From the UHGV virus genome UHGV-0382128: 64,000 nucleotides of DNA, one strand, 5' to 3'. Positions 45,606 to 61,582 of the stretch are shown here, in pieces. The notes under the pieces are model-generated. The model ran no database searches, was not told where the DNA came from, and was given only the letters and a program-made list of their open reading frames with translations. How positions within the stretch are numbered: the stretch's first letter is position 1; every line of letters starts with the position of its first letter. This stretch comes from a virus. Both the position numbers and the translations under genes were made by a program.

Positions 45606-45655
45606 AAAAGTAAAGCTACCCCTAGACCACACGGTCTAGGGGTAAACTATTTATT
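45606..45655. terminator. Bidirectional rho-independent terminator
   Basis: Stem cccctagacc / ggtctagggg (45619-45642) flanked by A-run and T-rich tract; between convergent genes. Confidence 0.75.
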
Positions 45656-46550
45656 TCCCACGATAAAATCCAGAGATGTAGCTTGGCGCTATCCATCGCC
45701 ATTCGCGCCAACGCATTTCTGACATTTTACCACACCATACACGCTTCCAATGAGCACGACGGATATGTGCTGCGCAATAAATCGCCAAACAAACCTCGTG
45801 TCCCTCCTTGCGTTGTTGTTCTATATCTTCCCATTGTACCGGACTTACGTCTAAAACGACCGCTTCACTACGTGGGCGAATCTCTGTATCAGGAACATAA
45901 CGAATGGTCCTCCCGCGAAATTCTTTCTTCTCACGTTCAGTTCGTTTAATTCGCGATGAAAGATATAGTCCGATATAGACGGCGTCGAGTAGTCGTTGAT
46001 TCTCCTTAACCGAAGTAAGGAGCGGCTTTAACTCCACGAAATCATCATTACTTTTATCGATCGTGTAAATCTCAAACTCCATGTATACCGACTCGTCATG
46101 TTCTTCGCATGACATCACAAAGAGAACTTCTTCACCTTCGTAAAGACGTCTTCCGATAAATAACGTGATTGGACATTCGTCGAGATTTACGGTAACCGAG
46201 AAAGTAAATGAAGGGATGGTTTCTATCCAGAAGTACGGGATATTTTTTAGTCTCTCAGTTTTTGCTAAGAGCGCCATCAGTTCTTCATCCGAGATGATTT
46301 CAACAGCAGCGTATTGCCATCCTAGTCCCAGGGACTGCTTAATCAGTCTGGGAATCTGTTCGGTAACGCCATATTCACGATAGGTCGGATCTTTAACTGG
46401 CATAAACGTTACGGGTATTTGTCGTTTATGCTCGTTAATGAACCGAATAAAACGGCACTGATCTAATCCGTGAATTGTTTGGTGTGCTTTTTCTATCTGT
46501 TCGCTCATGCGTCTTAGCGCTTTCCCGTAAAGTCTATTATTCGTTGTCAT
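45651..46550 (-). CDS. Paralog family A, member 1 (~299 aa; start revised to ATG at 46550)
   Basis: Track ORF 45651..46646 overlaps the upstream gene; the internal ATG (MTTNNRLYG...) is preceded by SD ggagca. C-terminal AAHIRRAHWKRVWCG...W.EWRWIAPSYISGF is shared with the neighbouring gene. Confidence 0.5.
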   Translation of the reverse strand: MTTNNRLYGKALRRMSEQIEKAHQTIHGLDQCRFIRFINEHKRQIPVTFMPVKDPTYREYGVTEQIPRLIKQSLGLGWQYAAVEIISDEELMALLAKTERLKNIPYFWIETIPSFTFSVTVNLDECPITLFIGRRLYEGEEVLFVMSCEEHDESVYMEFEIYTIDKSNDDFVELKPLLTSVKENQRLLDAVYIGLYLSSRIKRTEREKKEFRGRTIRYVPDTEIRPRSEAVVLDVSPVQWEDIEQQRKEGHEVCLAIYCAAHIRRAHWKRVWCGKMSEMRWREWRWIAPSYISGFYRGK

Positions 46551-46575
46551 TTTAATGCTCCTAAACACTTTTAGC

Positions 46576-47502
46576 TTAATTGTGGGGTACGTAGCCACGG
46601 ACAAATGTAGGTGGAATCCAACAAAGTTTTCTTTTTCTTTCCCCATCTCTTGGACCGACCCAATATCTGCGCCAGTGCGCGCGACGAATATGTGCGGCCT
46701 TGGCGTGTTTGATACCTTCCATGGTTTTCAAGTCGGTGTTAAATCCCTTTAGATATTTCACTTGTTCTGGTGTGATGTCTATTTTAACGTCACGTTCACG
46801 AGGTTTGATTTCGTGACTTATGCTACCATTCTTTTTGATTTCTTTGAACTTAATGTCATTGAAAGACCCTCTGAGATTGGGCGGGATTAGCGTACAGAGA
46901 AATATCAACGATATGGCGGTTTTGGCCAGTGATAACCATAACGTCTTCTCTTGTTCGGTCTGTACGCCAGTTGTATAATCGATTTCAACAAGCCCGTTTC
47001 CAACACTACATATCTCTAACGAGCAGGTGGCGATTGTGGTAACGCCTTCTGTTAACCCGTAATCAGTATTTGTAGCAATTATAATAAACCTTCTATTCCC
47101 ATTTTTTCGATAACCGAGAAAGAAAGTCTCATCTTCTTTACCTACATCGATTGCCACAGTCCAAGTAGGTATAAAGTCCAACCATTCTTCAGGGAATTTA
47201 CTGGGCATCTCAGTCTCGAAAACAAGTTCTCTAAGTGCTCGATCGGATATTAAGGAAGCACCACCGTATAGCCATCCGATCGCCAATGTTTGAGCGTGAA
47301 GGGAACGGGGATCTTTGAGACCTAACTCAGCATCGTAGGGTATAAAGGCATTAGTTAAATGCTTACGATTCTTTTTTATCCATTTCGAGACGGGATTTTC
47401 TTTTGTTTGGTTTTCTTCCATGACATTTTCTAGATGCTGACTCCCCATTTGTCTAAGGCAGTCTTTAATACCTTTTACTTTTTTACTTTTGTACAAATAC
47501 AT
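46576..47502 (-). CDS. Paralog family A, member 2 (308 aa)
   Basis: C-terminal AAHIRRAHWRRYWVG...LCWIPPTFVRGY and an internal block similar to the gene downstream; own SD aggaga after a terminator. Confidence 0.55.
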   Translation of the reverse strand: MYLYKSKKVKGIKDCLRQMGSQHLENVMEENQTKENPVSKWIKKNRKHLTNAFIPYDAELGLKDPRSLHAQTLAIGWLYGGASLISDRALRELVFETEMPSKFPEEWLDFIPTWTVAIDVGKEDETFFLGYRKNGNRRFIIIATNTDYGLTEGVTTIATCSLEICSVGNGLVEIDYTTGVQTEQEKTLWLSLAKTAISLIFLCTLIPPNLRGSFNDIKFKEIKKNGSISHEIKPRERDVKIDITPEQVKYLKGFNTDLKTMEGIKHAKAAHIRRAHWRRYWVGPRDGERKRKLCWIPPTFVRGYVPHN

Positions 47503-47520: not shown

Positions 47521-47560
47521 GGTTAAAAAAGATAGAGGGACGCTTTAGCGTCCCTCTAAG
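47521..47560 (-). terminator. Rho-independent terminator
   Basis: Stem agagggacgc / gcgtccctct, loop ttta, T-run on minus strand, then SD aggaga + ATG. Confidence 0.7.
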
Positions 47561-48046
47561 TCAATCATCTTCGGTAAGTTCAGGATGGTGGGTTTTTAAG
47601 TATCCCCATATCTGAATGGCGAGTGGCTCTTGATTTTCTAGAATCATCTGCTTTATTTTAGACTTCGACCCCCCATTCCAAATTTCCTTATAAAGTTTTC
47701 TCCATTCCTCACAAGCATAAAGAACGGTTGTTGTCGGATTTATAGGTAATGAACGATCGTTGTCTAAGAGTTTGACTGTACTATCTAGGATAATGTTAAG
47801 ACATGTTATTATATCTGCTTTTGACACGACAGACTTATCGGAGGGAAAGAAATTAGGCAGATGGCCCATTATAACGCTTTTATAGGTTATCGTAATAAAT
47901 TTACCCACGGCGGTTACCATCCATGGTTCAGCTTTTCTAGATACGTACAAATAAGATGGTAACTGTTTCTCTATTAAATCTATATGGTTTAAAAACAAGT
48001 GAGTAATAGCGCTATTACTCGGCTTAATGATGTTATTTATGTACAT
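47561..48046 (-). CDS. Paralog family B, member 1 (161 aa)
   Basis: Same length as the upstream gene and shared C-terminal block (...W.KLYKEIW...IQIWGYLKTHHPE vs ...WEKFYTRIW...LQLWEWLKANYP). Confidence 0.5.
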   Translation of the reverse strand: MYINNIIKPSNSAITHLFLNHIDLIEKQLPSYLYVSRKAEPWMVTAVGKFITITYKSVIMGHLPNFFPSDKSVVSKADIITCLNIILDSTVKLLDNDRSLPINPTTTVLYACEEWRKLYKEIWNGGSKSKIKQMILENQEPLAIQIWGYLKTHHPELTEDD

Positions 48047-48075
48047 AAAGTACTCTCTTATTTTCAGTCTATATT

Positions 48076-48561
48076 CTATAGTGACACGTAAATAGGATAA
48101 TTAGCTTTCAGCCACTCCCATAGCTGTAAGGAAAGTAGGTTTTCATTACGTTCGATGATTTCCATGATTTCGTCCAAGTTAGAATCTTCAACCCAAATCC
48201 GGGTATAAAATTTTTCCCATTCCGGTTCTGTATAAGGGACTAGAGGAGTAGGGAATCGCTCCATGTGGTACGCATCAGAAACTTTCTTTAAGAACTCGTC
48301 GCGACCATGGCGTAGGCGTTGCCGAACGTCTGTTTCTGTTATGCGCTTGCTTGATAGATCGGAGAAGTCAAATAGGCTAAATATGTATTGCGTTAGACAC
48401 CGAGAAGAAAAGTAGGACGCGGCATAAGCCGCCATCCAAGGAGTGTCTGCAACCAACGGAGTCAACTTTTCTTCAATTTCTTTTCTTACACGTGTTTCGT
48501 TATTGAGAAATTCATGTACGATATCGCAGTTACGAATATCGAAGATATGATTTAAGTTCAT
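48076..48561 (-). CDS. Paralog family B, member 2 (161 aa)
   Basis: See family B member 1. Confidence 0.5.
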   Translation of the reverse strand: MNLNHIFDIRNCDIVHEFLNNETRVRKEIEEKLTPLVADTPWMAAYAASYFSSRCLTQYIFSLFDFSDLSSKRITETDVRQRLRHGRDEFLKKVSDAYHMERFPTPLVPYTEPEWEKFYTRIWVEDSNLDEIMEIIERNENLLSLQLWEWLKANYPIYVSL

Positions 48562-48562
48562 T

Positions 48563-49087
48563 TTACTGTCCTAAAATTGGGGTGAGTCTGTCTGCGGTGT
48601 TTAACAATGCTTTTGTAATTTCGTGGTTGGTCTCTTTTAGGATGGCGCAGCAGAGAGTGGTATAAACCTCGATTGCTAAACCGATTTCTTGTTCAGTCAG
48701 ACACGGTTCGGTGCCGCCAATCCCGTAACGCTGCGCTGCATACTCAATTTCAAGTTTCAAACGTTTTCGTAGTGCCTCGTCATCAGTTAAACGCGCGCAC
48801 GCCCGATCGAAACGTCTATTGTAAGCCTCGATCTTGTGGACAATTTCGCGTCGCAGTTGGTCGACCTTTACGTTATCATCAAGAGTGATGGTGACGTTGT
48901 CAACTAAACAGTAATGCACCGCGTGTCGTAAGTTGTGTAATGTGGCGGCAGTAACGACCCGCTCCTGATGGTCGCTAAAGCCGTGGGCACCACAGAGCTT
49001 GCGTGCAACCGCGCCAGAGATTTTCTCCTCTAACGCTATCGGCGTGGCAATGGTTGTTTTCTTACGAAGCTGAATTAAAATATCCAC
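48563..49087 (-). CDS. Hypothetical protein (174 aa)
   Basis: ORF abutting neighbours (operon-like spacing). Confidence 0.45.
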   Translation of the reverse strand: MDILIQLRKKTTIATPIALEEKISGAVARKLCGAHGFSDHQERVVTAATLHNLRHAVHYCLVDNVTITLDDNVKVDQLRREIVHKIEAYNRRFDRACARLTDDEALRKRLKLEIEYAAQRYGIGGTEPCLTEQEIGLAIEVYTTLCCAILKETNHEITKALLNTADRLTPILGQ

Positions 49088-49089
49088 GG

Positions 49090-49632
49090 TTATACTCCTT
49101 TAGGTTGTCCGTATTTTGACGATAGGTAGATGAGTTCAGCATGGCAGATTTTCTCAACTAACCCGAGTGTCTCAAGGAAAATATCCCGGATACGGGACAT
49201 CGTTTCGTTGGTAAGAATATCGCTCCAACATGTTGTGTCTATTATATCCGTCGTTGAAGATTGGCGCTGCAATATTGCGACATACACTTCGTCGAGGCTA
49301 TCTGGTGCATTATTCTGTAAGTAATGGGCGGCATGTAGAAAGGCTTTCTCAAGAATCAGCTGAATATCCGTATCGGGATCAGTTACCCGTACTAAATGCG
49401 GGTATGTCATAGCCGAACTGATTTTTATCACTAACTGCTCAACGAGGTTATTCACCATCGCTTCTGAATCCAGGATAGTAATATCAGCTCCATCGTGTTC
49501 TTCAGAAATCTTATTCTCATGCACTGCTATCGCATCGTGTAATTCAAACGCAACGCGACTTCGCATCTCACTTAACACTTTGTTTAATTTGTCCCGTGAC
49601 TCGCTGAGTGAGAAATCGATAAGTATTTTCAT
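49090..49632 (-). CDS. Hypothetical protein (180 aa)
   Basis: ORF; 1-nt overlap with the upstream gene. Confidence 0.45.
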   Translation of the reverse strand: MKILIDFSLSESRDKLNKVLSEMRSRVAFELHDAIAVHENKISEEHDGADITILDSEAMVNNLVEQLVIKISSAMTYPHLVRVTDPDTDIQLILEKAFLHAAHYLQNNAPDSLDEVYVAILQRQSSTTDIIDTTCWSDILTNETMSRIRDIFLETLGLVEKICHAELIYLSSKYGQPKGV

Positions 49633-50375
49633 TATACGTACTCCTGATAAATTGGCCGACCCCGATCTTCTCGAATCTGGCAGTATGTTACAACAATACC
49701 GTTAGGGATTTGTGCGCCGCTGTCTTCAAGGTAAATAACGCCCGTAGCTTCACAGAGATAAAACGACCACAATCGTGAGATACCAAGCCGTGCGTTCTCG
49801 TAGTGACTGAATGGCCAGAAACCACAGTGAATCTCATCATAGTCTCCCCGTTCTATCCCGTAAGCAATCATTTCTTTTTCCCACAACGTACATTCAGCGT
49901 CGTAAGTCGAAAACCAGAAACCAACGAGATTCTTTGTCCGCTTAACGTTCATTAAGTCGTTATAAATGGGAAAGAGTGCTTTATTGAAATTTTCTAACAT
50001 CTCTGGAGAGAATAGAAAATTCATGTAGTATTCTAGCCATTGATAAACGGCTTCCCAGACATCTTCAGAAGAGAAATGTTCGAATACGGCGTCATCGCAA
50101 TCGTAGTTATCGAAGATCCCTGAGAGATCTATTTCGACGACGCCGCGAAGGTCAAAGTTTCTGTTGGTATTGACAGCGTCAATAACCTCAGCGATGAGAC
50201 GAGTAAAGACGATTGTGCAGGCGGTTTGTGCGGTATAAAAGAATTCTCCTTGTACGGTTGACCACTTCGGGTCCTTCAAATGTTCATTGAAGTATTGTGG
50301 CCAAATTTTATAAAAGATTCCCTCGAACAACGAGGGATTGATACGTTGTAATTGAGGGACATAAACTTTTAGCAT
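49632..50375 (-). CDS. Hypothetical protein (247 aa)
   Basis: ORF only. Confidence 0.45.
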   Translation of the reverse strand: MLKVYVPQLQRINPSLFEGIFYKIWPQYFNEHLKDPKWSTVQGEFFYTAQTACTIVFTRLIAEVIDAVNTNRNFDLRGVVEIDLSGIFDNYDCDDAVFEHFSSEDVWEAVYQWLEYYMNFLFSPEMLENFNKALFPIYNDLMNVKRTKNLVGFWFSTYDAECTLWEKEMIAYGIERGDYDEIHCGFWPFSHYENARLGISRLWSFYLCEATGVIYLEDSGAQIPNGIVVTYCQIREDRGRPIYQEYV

Positions 50376-58605: not shown

Positions 58606-59115
58606 TTAGAAGAACGGCTGGTTTGGAATGACAGCGTACTCTAAAATGAACATGTGTTCTGGGGCGTCTTCTTTACGCCAGACTTTGTGTGTCGACACAA
58701 GTTTTTCCAGAATCGTTAAGAAACTGCGCTGGCAGTATGTGTTTTCACCAAGCAGTAGATTTTGAAGTTCTACAGTAGCGTCCATATACGCCTGTTTAAA
58801 GACTAAATTACGGTTATACTGCCCGGTAAAATTCCAAAGCAAGACTTTCCCTTCTTCGGTTTCTTTTACCGTTGGTCGTAAACCACAAATCCACAGTAAG
58901 GCAAGGTTGACGTTCCAGTCAAACTCTAAACCTTCTTCTTCGTCATCACCGAATGCTGTGGGTAAAGCATCGTAAAATTCGTGTTTCTCTGCGAATTCTT
59001 CATCCGACTTAATCTCGTCTTCGATACTGCTTCGGACGATACTGTAAACGTCTTTCGCGGTCAATTGTGCGGCTTTTGTAATGCCTTTATACCAATCGGT
59101 TACTACGATGCTCAA
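58606..59115 (-). CDS. Hypothetical protein (169 aa)
   Basis: ORF overlapping the SLT gene by 4 nt. Confidence 0.45.
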   Translation of the reverse strand: MSIVVTDWYKGITKAAQLTAKDVYSIVRSSIEDEIKSDEEFAEKHEFYDALPTAFGDDEEEGLEFDWNVNLALLWICGLRPTVKETEEGKVLLWNFTGQYNRNLVFKQAYMDATVELQNLLLGENTYCQRSFLTILEKLVSTHKVWRKEDAPEHMFILEYAVIPNQPFF

Positions 59116-59837
59116 AGGGTAACTCCTCTATTGATTGGAAAACTCGTGTTTATCGTATCCCAAATTCTACTAACTTCCGCCAGTTGAATCTGACGTGGTG
59201 TTTTCTTCGCAAACGCAAGCTGACGTGGGGCCGAGCCCACAACAACAGGCACATCGATTTTCGCGCTATAGAACGCGGCGTCTTTCATAAAGCCTGCCAT
59301 TTCTCGTTGTGCTGCTCGAGATTTGCTTTTGATTCGCGTGTGAGCGCCACTTTCACCCCAGTGGTAAGCTAACGCAATTTCAGCCATGGTGGGCTTGCGT
59401 TTGAGTCGTTTGGTTAACCCCCTCTCAAGATGTTTAACATACGCGGCAGCCAGCAAAACAGCATTACGCGGATTATATAAATCGGCGTTCTGACTAAGAC
59501 CTAATTCTTTTCCATAAAGCCTTAGCAGATTACGCTTGGTACTTGGAAGCATCTGTACCAGGCTGTGTGCTCGTGAGCTTTTGTTGTAAGCCTTGGGATC
59601 AAAACGTGATTCGCGATAAATCAGCGTAATCATCAGCTTAGGATCAACGCCTTGCTTTCGTGAGATTTCCACAATTAACGGGCTGACTTTTTCGAACCGA
59701 TGTTGGATTTGTGCAAACTCACGCTGATGCTTAGAATGTGGCGTTGACGTTGACGCCTGTGCGTTAAACGCGAAAAGTGTTACCAGTAAAAGAAAGAAGA
59801 TACGAAACATTTTGTTTCTCCAGTTGGATTTATACAT
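59112..59837 (-). CDS. Signal-peptide-bearing lytic transglycosylase (SLT domain), endolysin candidate (241 aa)
   Basis: N-terminal MFRIFFLLLVTLFAFNAQAS; SLT core LIYRESRFDPKAYNKSSRAHSLVQMLPST...LLAAAYVKHL (catalytic Glu-Ser and the SxxGxxQ block). Confidence 0.7.
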   Translation of the reverse strand: MYKSNWRNKMFRIFFLLLVTLFAFNAQASTSTPHSKHQREFAQIQHRFEKVSPLIVEISRKQGVDPKLMITLIYRESRFDPKAYNKSSRAHSLVQMLPSTKRNLLRLYGKELGLSQNADLYNPRNAVLLAAAYVKHLERGLTKRLKRKPTMAEIALAYHWGESGAHTRIKSKSRAAQREMAGFMKDAAFYSAKIDVPVVVGSAPRQLAFAKKTPRQIQLAEVSRIWDTINTSFPINRGVTL

Positions 59838-59910: not shown

Positions 59911-60471
59911 CTATTTAAAAGAGTTTGGAATTAATGACTCTGCTTCTTGGTACAACTTATCAGGTAAGTATAACGTGTAGCACTGCCTCCTCGGTTCAAG
60001 TTTTTTGTAAAGCCACAAAAAGATTTCTTGTCTTTCCCAGGAATCTAACCACCCATTTGCCATTCCCAGTGGAGGGATAGCAACGCTGGTATTCAGATCC
60101 TCAGCACAGTCTGCTAGTGCGCTAATGCCCGCAGTAACATAAGAAACCTGTGACTTTAAACGCCAATGGGTTTTCGTGGGGAGCAAGATACACTTTTCAT
60201 CAGAGTAAACGTAAACGCTTCCAATCTTAATTTCGTCTTCACGACACCGCTTACGATAATCCTGATAAAGGTTGGGGTAGCGTTCACGGCACGCCAGTGC
60301 AATACCGCGACCCATCGCTCCTACGCAGTTAATGGTAACGACTTTATAGTCTTCGGGTGCATTAAAAAGATCGTTACCAATTTCAGATTCTTTACGTACC
60401 GTTAACATAACGAAACGTCCGGAGTTGGTGTGTAGTATTAAAACGTGTACCGCCGATTGATAGCTCGACAA
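59911..60471 (-). CDS. Putative macro-domain (ADP-ribose binding/processing) protein (186 aa)
   Basis: VVTINCVGAMGRGIALACRERYP (glycine-rich loop as in macro domains) and later VAIPPLGMANGWL; by eye only. Confidence 0.45.
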   Translation of the reverse strand: MSSYQSAVHVLILHTNSGRFVMLTVRKESEIGNDLFNAPEDYKVVTINCVGAMGRGIALACRERYPNLYQDYRKRCREDEIKIGSVYVYSDEKCILLPTKTHWRLKSQVSYVTAGISALADCAEDLNTSVAIPPLGMANGWLDSWERQEIFLWLYKKLEPRRQCYTLYLPDKLYQEAESLIPNSFK

Positions 60472-61132: not shown

Positions 61133-61582
61133 TTAGAATGTTTTGCTAAAATCGACCCACTCACGATCGTGCGAGTAAACCGCCTGATAGCCGCGTCGGA
61201 TGAAATACTCTTTTGCTTCTTTACATTTCGCATACATGCCAGTAACAATCTCACCGAAAACTTCATCAGCTGCAATTGCTTTGAAAATCTCTTTCATTAC
61301 ACCCCGTTGACGATAGTCTGGGAGCACGTATACCGAACGTATCTTAAGTGAACCGTTACGATTCCGATAACTACAGTATCCTACCGCGACATCATCCTGA
61401 TACACCAGAACTATGCAGTTACCTTCGATCAGCTGTCGCGCATTTAACTTCGGCACCGACGTTTTGATTTTCAGTAACGTGGCCTGGTGGTCTAAGTAAC
61501 GGTAGTGTAGTTTGAGTAAATCGGCAGCTTGTCGCTCACCGACTTTAGAAGATGCGTTCAACAAATAAATTTCCATTTGCAA
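61133..61582 (-). CDS. GNAT-family N-acetyltransferase (149 aa)
   Basis: Motif A-like IRSVYVLPDYRQRGVMKEIFKAI. Confidence 0.55.
   Translation of the reverse strand: MQMEIYLLNASSKVGERQAADLLKLHYRYLDHQATLLKIKTSVPKLNARQLIEGNCIVLVYQDDVAVGYCSYRNRNGSLKIRSVYVLPDYRQRGVMKEIFKAIAADEVFGEIVTGMYAKCKEAKEYFIRRGYQAVYSHDREWVDFSKTF

What the first reader, a model, noticed from the sequence alone, without database searches (positions are those of the whole stretch)
47561..48561. Tandem duplicated 161-aa genes (family B)
Two consecutive ORFs of identical length, separated by 29 bp, share a C-terminal block (EEW.KLYKEIW...IQIWGYLKTHHPE vs EPEWEKFYTRIW...LQLWEWLKANYP) but differ at the N-terminus. Equal length with mosaic divergence suggests recent duplication followed by diversifying selection.
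Basis: seen in the sequence. Interest (0 to 1): 0.45.

Follow-up and report, generated by a model that had tools for sequence, protein, structure and literature searches.

The report
Old paralog pair in hypervariable phage cassette
The two 161-residue genes are real but anciently diverged relatives of a small helical protein family found only in one group of giant enterobacterial phages. They sit in a gene slot that related phages swap and stack like interchangeable cartridges, which points to a host-interaction or counter-defence role that has not been tested.

Summary
Two 161-aa ORFs lie on the minus strand, b at 48561..48076 and a at 48046..47561, 29 nt apart. They are homologous over their whole length (26% identity, E 2e-16; profile E 3e-27), not only at the C-terminus.

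Within-type dN/dS is 0.27-0.29, so positive selection is not shown.

The window is an SPN3US/Asesino-like jumbo phage of about 225 kb. The family is an orphan: a profile search of 1.84 billion proteins found only three clusters (a, b, c), with no Pfam, PHROG, NCBIfam or PDB match.

In close relatives the flanking genes are 91-100% identical, but this slot holds one gene only 40-66% identical to b. Slot 1 carries b1, b2 or c. Slot 2 (a, with its own ribosome-binding site and terminator hairpin) is optional. All six combinations occur.

The g174-b-a module has dS 0.23-0.34 between sublineages whose core genes have dS 1.1-2.6, so it moved by recombination.

AlphaFold gives confident all-helical models with no convincing structural analog. 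Two AcrVA2-like genes lie directly downstream. The best guess, inferred only, is a variable counter-defence or host-binding protein.

The parts
48076..48561 (-). Gene b (slot 1): 161 aa, acidic (pI 5.0, charge -8), all-helical. It is the b1 allele of a slot that in other phages holds b1, b2 or c alleles.
   Evidence: ORF. 29 homolog clusters at 99-39% identity. Its ATG lies 1 nt after the stop of g174, with AGGA 7 nt upstream. AF2 pLDDT 87.4, pTM 0.83. pI. dN/dS 0.27.
47561..48046 (-). Gene a (slot 2): 161 aa, neutral to basic (pI 6.7-9.1), all-helical. It is an optional paralog, present only in some phages and always downstream of a slot-1 gene.
   Evidence: ORF. 7 clusters at 81-100% identity, all in two-copy loci. 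AF2 pLDDT 87.4, pTM 0.84. dN/dS 0.29. GC 36.2%, second lowest of 59 genes.
48047..48075 (-). 29-nt spacer between b and a. It has an SD-like AAGAGAG 6 nt before the ATG of a and no hairpin, so b and a are probably co-transcribed (inferred).
   Evidence: Sequence. The spacer is conserved (28-29 nt) in L006, L015 and L017.
47533..47558 (-). Terminator-like hairpin TAGAGGGACGC-TAAA-GCGTCCCTCTA followed by a T-run, directly after a. It is specific to two-copy loci; single-copy loci have CACCCTAGC-TTCG-GCTAGGGT instead.
   Evidence: Terminator scan. Junction comparison across 11 loci.
47530..48085 (-). The 'a cassette' indel of about 556 nt. It runs from the last four codons of the slot-1 gene (..YVSL* instead of ..YVKID*) to the T-run after a's hairpin. 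In single-copy relatives about 45 nt takes its place.
   Evidence: blastn breakpoints and junction sequences.
48563..49087 (-). g174 (174 aa, unknown function), the upstream neighbour. It was co-transferred with b and a between sublineages and is absent from one relative (L031).
   Evidence: dS 0.26 between window and L006, against 1.1-2.6 in core genes. Absence in L031.
46576..47502 (-). AcrVA2-like gene 1 (308 aa), directly downstream of a's hairpin.
   Evidence: phmmer against PDB: AcrVA2 7CI1, E = 1.7e-4, C-terminal HIRRxHW motif. Orthologs carry precomputed PF26125. phrog_6160.
45651..46550 (-). AcrVA2-like gene 2. It is probably 299 aa starting at 46550; the 331-aa reading from 46646 overlaps gene 1 by 71 nt. 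It is a paralog of gene 1.
   Evidence: BLASTP 23% identity, E 8e-19 against the 308-aa gene. Gene calls of 299 aa in near-identical contigs. PF26125 in orthologs.

Best explanation
SHOWN. a and b are two intact, purifying-selected members of an orphan family of soluble all-helical proteins of about 19 kDa. The helices are about 13-32, 41-65, 76-95 and 111-153.

The family exists only in one clade of SPN3US/Asesino-like jumbo phages of about 222-229 kb from Enterobacteriaceae. They occupy a two-slot hypervariable cassette at the end of a putative operon: exonuclease - RNase H - 222 - 247 - 180 - 174 - b - a - hairpin.
- Slot 1 is always filled, by one of at least three deeply diverged allele classes: b1, b2 (66% to b1) and c (40%).
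- Slot 2 (a, 26-31% to the others) is optional.
- All six combinations occur, and the module crosses between sublineages by homologous recombination.
- Likely anchors are the conserved 3' end of the slot-1 gene (LWEWLKANYP.YV) and the conserved RBS and start of the next gene.
- So the pair in this window is an old paralog stacked next to a slot-1 allele, not a fresh duplication.

INFERRED (function). The constrained N-terminal 20 and C-terminal 22 residues (65-67% identity between b and c, pN about 0.19) form a common scaffold or a docking surface for a conserved partner.

The near-randomised centre (helices 2-3, 27% identity; 13% between a and b) and the different net charge (b -6 to -14, c -2 to -5, a 0 to +4) would set specificity for a variable target.

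I think the most likely target is a strain-variable host factor, probably an immune or defence component. Carrying both a and b would then widen the range of hosts or defences the phage can handle. Two AcrVA2-like anti-CRISPR homologs lie immediately downstream, which fits an anti-defence neighbourhood.
For: Paralogy.

Orphan status:
- A profile search of 1.84e9 representatives returns only the a, b and c clusters plus two fragments.
- No hit in Pfam, PHROGs or NCBIfam, in PDB sequences, or by tblastn of 50,697 phage records.

Phage identity: the RNase H is 64-67% identical to Asesino, phiEaH2 and SPN3US; multisubunit RNAP, tail sheath and other hallmark genes are present; synteny is shown.

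Hypervariable slot:
- Against L004, the flanking genes are 92-100% identical but the slot gene is 40%.
- Against L009, most flanks are 96-100% (g174 89%, g247 85%) but the slot gene is 66%.
- blastn homology at 93% stops at 48503 and resumes at 47529.

Six haplotypes: b1 (L018, L014, L020); b1+a (window, L006, L015); b2 (L009); b2+a (L028, L029); c (L004, L010, L013, L032); c+a (L017, L027).

Module transfer: dS for g174/b/a is 0.26/0.34/0.23, against 1.15-2.14 for g244, RNase H, g251 and g498 in the same comparison.

Selection: dN/dS is 0.27-0.29 with bootstrap intervals below 1, against 0.02-0.05 for core genes. The ends are constrained and the centre is not.

Structure: pLDDT 87.4 and pTM 0.83-0.84 for both, with the same helix order. 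Charge.

Neighbours: AcrVA2 match E 1.7e-4 and PF26125 on orthologs. A macro-domain gene lies 12 kb away; a macrodomain protein of chimalliviruses is a proven anti-DarT factor (PMC13309987).
Against: No functional evidence of any kind exists for this family. Guilt by association with AcrVA2-like genes is weak, and those neighbours are themselves uncharacterised in these phages.

Gene-wide and regional dN/dS are below 1, so an arms race is not demonstrated by substitution patterns.

The hairpins may be RNA-stability elements rather than terminators. Promoters of these phages could not be scanned; the sigma-70 scan was at background level.

Expression timing, localisation (cytoplasm, phage nucleus or virion) and binding partners are all unknown.
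Confidence: 0.4

Rival explanations
1. One reading: a recent in-situ tandem duplication, followed by rapid diversifying (positive) selection that erased most similarity except at the C-terminus.
For: The two genes have equal length, the same orientation and a 29-nt spacing, and show full-length homology. dN/dS is elevated relative to core genes (0.27-0.29 against 0.02-0.05).
Against: Synonymous sites between a and b are saturated. a is the outgroup to the b/c split. a orthologs at 81-83% identity exist in the other sublineage, paired with b1, b2 or c. a has a different terminator and lower GC. No segment has a dN/dS interval that lies wholly above 1.
Confidence: 0.05
2. Virion-packaged internal or ejected proteins, analogous to the polymorphic internal-protein (IP) locus of T-even phages. 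On this reading the conserved N-terminus is a capsid-targeting or propeptide signal, and the variable body acts on the host after injection. This could still be anti-restriction, as with T4 IPI* (own knowledge).
For: The N-terminal 20 residues are conserved across a, b and c while the body is hypervariable. The neighbouring 251-aa gene on the opposite strand is the ortholog of SPN3US gp214, an essential head-associated protein (PMC5105663). The cassette-like polymorphism resembles the T-even IP locus.
Against: No conserved [A/S/G]-x-E prohead-protease motif follows the N-terminal block in any of the three types (read from the alignment; the motif is from my own knowledge of phiKZ/SPN3US proteases). 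The C-terminus is just as conserved as the N-terminus, which a targeting-signal model does not need. The operon partners are nucleases, not structural genes.
Confidence: 0.12
3. Phage-versus-phage determinants, such as superinfection exclusion or co-infection incompatibility. On this reading allele classes are kept by frequency-dependent selection among competing jumbo phages.
For: Trans-lineage allele classes assort freely, which is the pattern expected under balancing selection. The constrained termini could dock onto a conserved phage component, while the centre discriminates self from non-self.
Against: There is no homology or structural similarity to known exclusion proteins, and no membrane segment (maximum Kyte-Doolittle 19-mer 0.7-1.3). 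The adjacent AcrVA2-like genes point to host rather than phage targets.
Confidence: 0.12
4. Remote members of the syntenic Erskinevirus gp235 / Asesino gp233 / SPN3US gp213 family. On this reading the block 180-174-161-161 is an array of very old paralogs with a shared housekeeping role in phage nucleic-acid metabolism, and it simply evolves fast.
For: The top Foldseek hit of model a in all of BFVD is Stratton gp235 (A0A1B2IHA5; prob 0.99, TM 0.51, E 0.058). One search verified this as the 172-aa gene in the same syntenic block. Both models hit the same unnamed 200-aa viral protein (TM 0.52 and 0.59). The genes are co-operonic with RNase H and an exonuclease.
Against: hhalign finds no relation among any of these families (probability at most 3.4%). 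Model b does not retrieve gp235 in its top 50. TM of about 0.5 between helical bundles is weak. A housekeeping role does not explain optional slot 2 or the deep allele classes inside nearly identical genomes.
Confidence: 0.15
5. Dispensable orphan genes with no selected function, drifting and being gained and lost neutrally in a plastic region.
For: Slot 2 is optional, g174 is optional, the genes have relaxed dN/dS and there are no known domains.
Against: The ORFs are intact at 160-162 aa in more than 35 protein clusters and many contigs. dN/dS is 0.27-0.29 with upper bounds of 0.43. There are 17 invariant positions across types that are otherwise 26-44% identical. The predicted folds are confident. 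Slot 1 is never empty in any of the 24 loci examined.
Confidence: 0.06

Closest known systems
Hyperplastic or accessory regions of large lytic phages, e.g. the polymorphic internal-protein (ipI/ipII/ipIII) locus of T-even phages (own knowledge; Repoila et al. 1994, Comeau et al. 2007)
   Same: A short slot between conserved genes holds different small ORFs in otherwise near-identical genomes. The alleles share a conserved N-terminal stretch and are bounded by conserved flanks and hairpins. Exchange is by homologous recombination. In T4, at least one occupant (IPI*) is an anti-restriction protein.
   Different: All occupants here are homologous to each other (one family, three or four classes), and both termini are conserved. 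No protease or capsid-targeting motif was found, and virion association is unknown. The host phage is a phiKZ-like jumbo phage, not a T4-like phage.
Anti-CRISPR / anti-defence gene clusters (e.g. AcrVA2, PDB 7CI1; Pfam PF26125)
   Same: The pair lies immediately next to two AcrVA2-like genes. The products are small soluble proteins with no enzymatic motifs, patchy presence and absence, mosaic exchange among related elements, and variable charge.
   Different: a and b have no sequence or structural similarity to AcrVA2 or to any solved anti-defence protein. No aca-type regulator was seen, and no activity has been tested.
Erwinia phage Stratton gp235 / phiEaH2 gp135 / Asesino gp233 / SPN3US gp213 (uncharacterised, 172-180 aa)
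   Same: They are in the same syntenic block between the RNase H operon and the gp214-like head gene, have similar size and are all-helical. Stratton gp235 is the best BFVD structural hit of model a (prob 0.99, TM 0.51).
   Different: There is no detectable sequence or profile similarity. Model b does not retrieve gp235. That family's function is equally unknown.
PRIN2 (plastid RNA-polymerase-associated protein; PDB 8R6S_U, 9EPT)

Membership tests
Tandem paralog pair (products of gene duplication) | Statistically significant homology over most of the length | tested here: met
   BLASTP E 2e-16 over 156 of 161 aa. Cross-profile E 3.4e-27 and 1.5e-18; shuffle z 22.9.
Tandem paralog pair (products of gene duplication) | The duplication is recent (low synonymous divergence, lineage-specific) | tested here: not met
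   pS is 0.64-0.97 in all segments. a is the outgroup to b/c. a is present in both sublineages.
Genes under pervasive diversifying (positive) selection | dN/dS above 1, gene-wide or in a defined region | tested here: not met
   Nei-Gojobori estimates with codon bootstrap: a 0.29 [0.20-0.43], b1 0.27 [0.18-0.43]. The highest segment is b1 codons 46-75 at 0.73 [0.28-2.32]. Site models were not run.
Recombining hypervariable cassette (hyperplastic-region locus) | Divergence at the locus is far greater than in its flanks between otherwise near-identical genomes, with sharp breakpoints | tested here: met
   Against L004 the flanking genes are 92-100% identical and the slot gene 40%. Against L009 most flanks are 96-100% (g174 89%, g247 85%) and the slot gene 66%. 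blastn breakpoints lie at 48503 and 47529.
Recombining hypervariable cassette (hyperplastic-region locus) | Allele type is decoupled from genome lineage (horizontal exchange) | tested here: met
   b1, c and +/-a occur in both sublineages, and b2 is also found with and without a. Module dS is 0.23-0.34 against core dS of 1.15-2.14.
AcrVA2 family (PF26125) | Sequence match to AcrVA2 or the Pfam model, including the C-terminal HIRRxHW block | tested here: not met
   a and b have no hit to the PDB, with A1 as query, or to Pfam. Only the neighbours at 46576-47502 and 45651-46550 match.
T-even-type internal proteins | A conserved N-terminal capsid-targeting sequence followed by a prohead-protease cleavage motif | tested here: inconclusive
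   The N-terminal 20 aa are conserved, but no conserved [ASG]-x-E site follows. The motif definition comes from my own knowledge, and packaging cannot be tested here.
T-even-type internal proteins | Presence in the virion | not testable with these tools
   This needs virion proteomics of a cultivated member.
Stratton gp235 / Asesino gp233 / SPN3US gp213 family | Detectable sequence or profile homology | tested here: not met
   BLASTP found nothing. hhalign probability is at most 0.3%.
Stratton gp235 / Asesino gp233 / SPN3US gp213 family | Same fold | tested here: inconclusive
   Foldseek with model a gives rank 1, prob 0.99, TM 0.51, E 0.058 (target identity verified). The protein is absent from the top 50 for model b.

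The most novel reading that the evidence does not exclude
The a/b/c family is a previously unrecognised class of specificity-bearing counter-defence (or host-takeover) proteins of nucleus-forming enterobacterial jumbo phages. A conserved two-helix docking scaffold would present a hypervariable two-helix surface. Allele classes would be kept as a balanced, trans-lineage polymorphism, and phages would broaden their spectrum by stacking a second paralog (a) next to the slot-1 allele. The cassette would work together with the adjacent AcrVA2-like genes.
Probability: 0.25. Interest if true: 0.65.

Novelty: new member of a known kind. Interest (0 to 1): 0.4.

Why it matters
Nucleus-forming jumbo phages are of interest for therapy because their shell excludes many DNA-targeting defences. 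They still need extra counter-defence genes; a macrodomain anti-DarT factor was recently shown (PMC13309987).

This locus has deep allele classes, optional stacking, recombination across sublineages and AcrVA2-like neighbours. That makes it a concrete place to look for new host-range or anti-immunity determinants in enterobacterial jumbo phages.

The six natural haplotypes provide a ready-made allelic series for experiments.

If the genes turn out to be dispensable, the locus is simply another plastic region holding an orphan family.

Tried and rejected
1. Known domains. Pfam, PHROGs and NCBIfam gave nothing for a or b. A PDB sequence search with the family profile gave only noise, E at least 0.19.
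2. Cultured phages. tblastn of a and b against 50,697 phage records found no match at E of 0.01 or below. Megablast of the 7-kb region also found nothing.
3. Remote relatives. The exhaustive profile search returned nothing beyond the three clusters. Scans found 5 loci in IMG/VR and none in GTDB genomes.
4. Neighbouring and position-equivalent genes. I tested whether w_174, w_180, w_222, w_247, Asesino gp233/gp234 and SPN3US gp213 are hidden paralogs. hhalign all-against-all was negative.
5. Widening the Asesino gp233 family. My last homolog search returned only 3 close sequences, so no better profile could be built.
7. w_174 as a gp25/TssE-like baseplate protein. The NCBIfam hit scored 22 bits against a cut-off of 53, and a profile search of the PDB did not support it. 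Rejected.
8. Recent recombination as the cause of the conserved ends of b and c alleles. Rejected, because pS is saturated there too (0.86-0.89). The ends are conserved by selection on the protein.
9. Sigma-70 promoter scan. The count was at or below the shuffle expectation and is uninformative for this kind of phage.
10. Rfam and tRNA scans of the window found nothing.

Full report
OBSERVATION. Two ATG-initiated ORFs of exactly 161 codons lie at 47561..48046 (here 'a') and 48076..48561 ('b'), 29 nt apart. Both are on the minus strand, so b is upstream of a.

b starts 1 nt after the stop codon of the preceding 174-aa gene, with AGGA 7 nt upstream. a has an SD-like AAGAGAG in the 29-nt spacer. 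A strong hairpin plus T-run (47558-47533) follows a directly.

The two products are homologous over their full length:
- BLASTP gives 26% identity over 156 aa with one gap, E 2e-16.
- The Smith-Waterman z-score is 22.9 against 2000 shuffles.
- An HMM built without any a-type sequence finds a at E 3.4e-27 among 426 ORF segments of the window and finds nothing else.

The N-terminal 20 residues are the best-conserved part (45%) and the centre (46-105) is the worst (13%).

GENOMIC SETTING. The window belongs to a phiKZ-like jumbo phage. It has split multisubunit RNA-polymerase beta subunits, a tail sheath and a 2374-aa tail-fibre-like protein.

Its 506-aa RNase H is 64-67% identical to those of Erwinia phages Asesino, phiEaH2 and Stratton (Erskinevirus) and of Salmonella phage SPN3US (Seoulvirus). 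Gene order around the locus is syntenic with those phages. The order is: exonuclease, RNase H (SPN3US gp207), a 222-aa gene (~gp208), a 247-aa gene (~gp209), a 180-aa gene (~gp212), then a variable stretch, then the oppositely oriented 251-aa gene (~gp214), then a UvsX-like gene. SPN3US gp214 is an essential head-associated protein (PMC5105663).

In this window the variable stretch holds g174, b, a and two paralogous AcrVA2-like genes. The 308-aa gene matches AcrVA2 (PDB 7CI1) at E 1.7e-4 through the C-terminal HIRRxHW block. Its orthologs carry precomputed PF26125 hits.

No cultured phage in the INPHARED copy matches the region by megablast. None encodes a detectable a or b homolog.

AN ORPHAN FAMILY. 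Word-indexed searches found 7 clusters for a (81-100% identity) and 29 for b (99-39%). The exhaustive profile search of 1.84 billion representatives found only three full-length 50%-identity clusters, plus two N-terminal fragments.

The clusters correspond to three types: a (mean 85% within type), b (79%, comprising b1 and a b2 subgroup about 66% identical to the window's b) and c (74%). Between types, identity is 28% for a-b, 31% for a-c and 44% for b-c.

Seventeen columns are invariant across all types: M1, N4, H16, L19, N20, L33, W42, L63, F66, P104, W115, Y119, I122, W147, L150, K151 and P155.

There is no Pfam, PHROG, NCBIfam or PDB-sequence match. There is also no profile-profile relation to any neighbouring or position-equivalent gene family.

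STRUCTURE. AlphaFold2 with the family alignment gives confident models for both proteins (pLDDT 87.4; pTM 0.84 and 0.83). Both show the same order of long helices, roughly 13-32/37, 41-65, 76-95/99 and 109/111-153.

Foldseek against BFVD gives Stratton gp235 as the top hit for a (prob 0.99, TM 0.51, E 0.058). I verified this to be the 172-aa gene in the same syntenic block. Model b does not retrieve it. Both models weakly hit one unnamed 200-aa viral protein (TM 0.52 and 0.59). I regard a distant relationship to the gp235/gp213 family as possible but unproven.

The proteins are soluble, with no hydrophobic span. They differ strongly in charge: b has pI 4.7-5.3 (charge -6 to -14), c has pI 5.3-6.3, and a has pI 6.7-9.1.

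THE KEY RESULT: A TWO-SLOT HYPERVARIABLE CASSETTE. I fetched 24 related loci from public assemblies. The phages fall into two sublineages:
- Sublineage A has a 506-aa RNase H and includes this window.
- Sublineage B has a 503-aa RNase H.
- Between them, core-gene dS is 1.15-2.14, and several accessory genes are only 57-62% identical.

Within sublineage A, contigs L003/L004 have flanking genes 92-100% identical to the window. They carry a single 161-aa gene that is 40% identical to b and 30% to a. L009 (most flanks 96-100%; g174 89%, g247 85%) carries a single gene 66% identical to b.

At the DNA level, 93% homology with L004 ends at 48503 and resumes at 47529.

Slot 1 is filled in every locus by b1, b2 or c. 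Slot 2 (a) is present only in some loci. All six combinations were found:
- b1 alone (L014, L018, L020)
- b1+a (window, L006, L015)
- b2 alone (L009)
- b2+a (L028, L029)
- c alone (L004, L010, L013, L032)
- c+a (L017, L027)

Mosaic alleles also exist. In P0029 and the L031 gene, residues 21-45 are b-like in an otherwise c-like protein.

The a cassette is a clean indel. Slot-1 genes end ..DYVKID* followed by the hairpin CACCCTAGC-TTCG-GCTAGGGT when alone. When a follows, they end ..YVSL*..YVTP* or ..YMSL* and are followed by a 28-29-nt spacer. After a comes a different hairpin, GAGGGACGC-TWWA-GCGTCCCTC. Downstream of the T-run, the RBS and the start of the AcrVA2-like gene are the same in both forms.

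Between the window and sublineage-B locus L006, g174, b and a have dS of 0.26, 0.34 and 0.23. The surrounding core genes have dS of 1.15-2.14. The g174-b-a module was therefore exchanged between sublineages long after they split. This window (with its near-identical contigs) is the only sublineage-A genome seen with a, so the likely direction of transfer was B to A.

a also has the second-lowest GC of 59 genes in the window (36.2% against a mean of 44.4%, sd 3.4).

SELECTION. Within types the genes are under purifying but relaxed selection. dN/dS is 0.29 [0.20-0.43] for seven a sequences and 0.27 [0.18-0.43] for six b1 sequences. Core genes are at 0.02-0.05 and g174 at 0.16-0.53. No segment has an interval that lies wholly above 1.

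Between b and c, synonymous sites are saturated everywhere. The N-terminal 20 and C-terminal 22 residues keep 65-67% identity (pN 0.18-0.19). Residues 21-105 keep only 27-28% (pN 0.50-0.52).

So the ends are held by selection on the protein, and the centre has been free or driven to change. 'Diversifying selection' in the formal sense is not shown. The diversity is old, and it is maintained and recombined.

INTERPRETATION. The following are shown:
- paralogy;
- orphan distribution;
- a confident helical fold;
- the two-slot organisation, free assortment and inter-lineage transfer;
- purifying selection.

The following are inferred:
- The putative operon runs from the hairpin at 53416-53387 to the hairpin after a.
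- The conserved termini act as a scaffold or docking surface, and the variable helices 2-3 act as a specificity surface.
- The target is a strain-variable host factor, most plausibly a defence component.

The third inference rests on the population-genetic pattern, the adjacent AcrVA2-like genes, and a macro-domain gene at 59911-60471. A macrodomain protein in chimalliviruses is a demonstrated anti-DarT factor (PMC13309987).

I put about 0.9 on the evolutionary and structural description and about 0.35-0.4 on the counter-defence or host-specificity function.

The rivals are packaged internal proteins of the T-even IP type, phage-phage competition determinants, fast-evolving members of the gp235/gp213 block with a housekeeping role, and neutral orphans. 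They are listed with their tests.

NOVELTY. The kind of thing is well known: a plastic accessory locus in a large lytic phage that holds small, fast-evolving genes. The family itself is undescribed. The complete 3 x 2 set of natural haplotypes next to AcrVA2-like genes in a nucleus-forming-type jumbo phage is a good experimental handle. I rate it a new member of a known kind, of moderate interest.

Noticed in passing
window 45651-47502 (minus strand): Two adjacent paralogous AcrVA2-like genes: 308 aa, and 299 or 331 aa (23% identical, E 8e-19). The 308-aa product matches AcrVA2 (PDB 7CI1) at E 1.7e-4 through a C-terminal HIRRxHW..W.P..F block. Orthologs carry PF26125, but the local Pfam scan gave no hit. 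The 331-aa reading overlaps the upstream gene by 71 nt, and gene callers on near-identical contigs start it at 46550 (299 aa).
   Followed up: partly
L031 (NZ_CP173450.1, E. coli 98232, 221,873 bp circular) and L032 (NZ_CP134650.1, Enterobacter ludwigii, 222,441 bp circular); also contigs in Salmonella and Shigella isolate assemblies (e.g. GCA_001292545.1, 228,572 bp): Genomes of this jumbo-phage clade are deposited as circular 'plasmids' or as contigs of bacterial isolates. No cultured phage record matches by megablast. This suggests a carrier state or pseudolysogeny in enterobacterial cultures.
   Followed up: partly
window 48563-49087 (g174); L031 4481-5535: The 174-aa gene upstream of b is itself optional, being absent from the E. 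coli 'plasmid' genome. It was co-transferred with b and a (dS 0.26). It has a sub-threshold NCBIfam hit to TssE/gp25 (22 bits, cut-off 53) that a PDB profile search did not support.
   Followed up: yes
window 49632-50375 (g247) and 46576-47502 (g308), compared with L003-L029: Other genes of the block also show discrete allele classes that do not follow lineage. g247 is 94-95% identical in L004 and L014 but 84-85% in L009, L010 and L018. Within sublineage B, the AcrVA2-like gene 1 is either 91% identical (310 aa; loci without a) or 68% (311 aa; loci with a).
   Followed up: partly
L004 1967-3488 (GCA_001292545.1): In this relative the RNase H gene is split into 168-aa and 297-aa ORFs. This is a frameshift, a pseudogene or an assembly error.
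   Followed up: no
window 59911-60471, 61133-61582, 59112-59837 (minus strand): Three genes with Pfam matches: a macro-domain protein (3.1e-6), a GNAT acetyltransferase and an SLT transglycosylase. The macro-domain gene may correspond to the AdfM anti-DarT factor described for chimalliviruses (PMC13309987). This was not tested.
   Followed up: no
window 45616-45645: A perfect 12-13-bp hairpin lies between the convergent AcrVA2-like gene 2 and the 251-aa gp214-like gene. It scores as a terminator on both strands.
   Followed up: no
BFVD entry A0A7T8EQB2 (200 aa, unnamed): This is the only viral predicted structure hit by both models (TM 0.52 for a, 0.59 for b). Its sequence and source phage could not be retrieved with the tools at hand.
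   Followed up: no
P0029 and L031 4481-4969: This is a mosaic slot-1 allele. Residues 21-45 are b-like (64% identical to the window's b) while the rest is c-like (50-75%), which indicates intragenic recombination between allele classes.
   Followed up: partly
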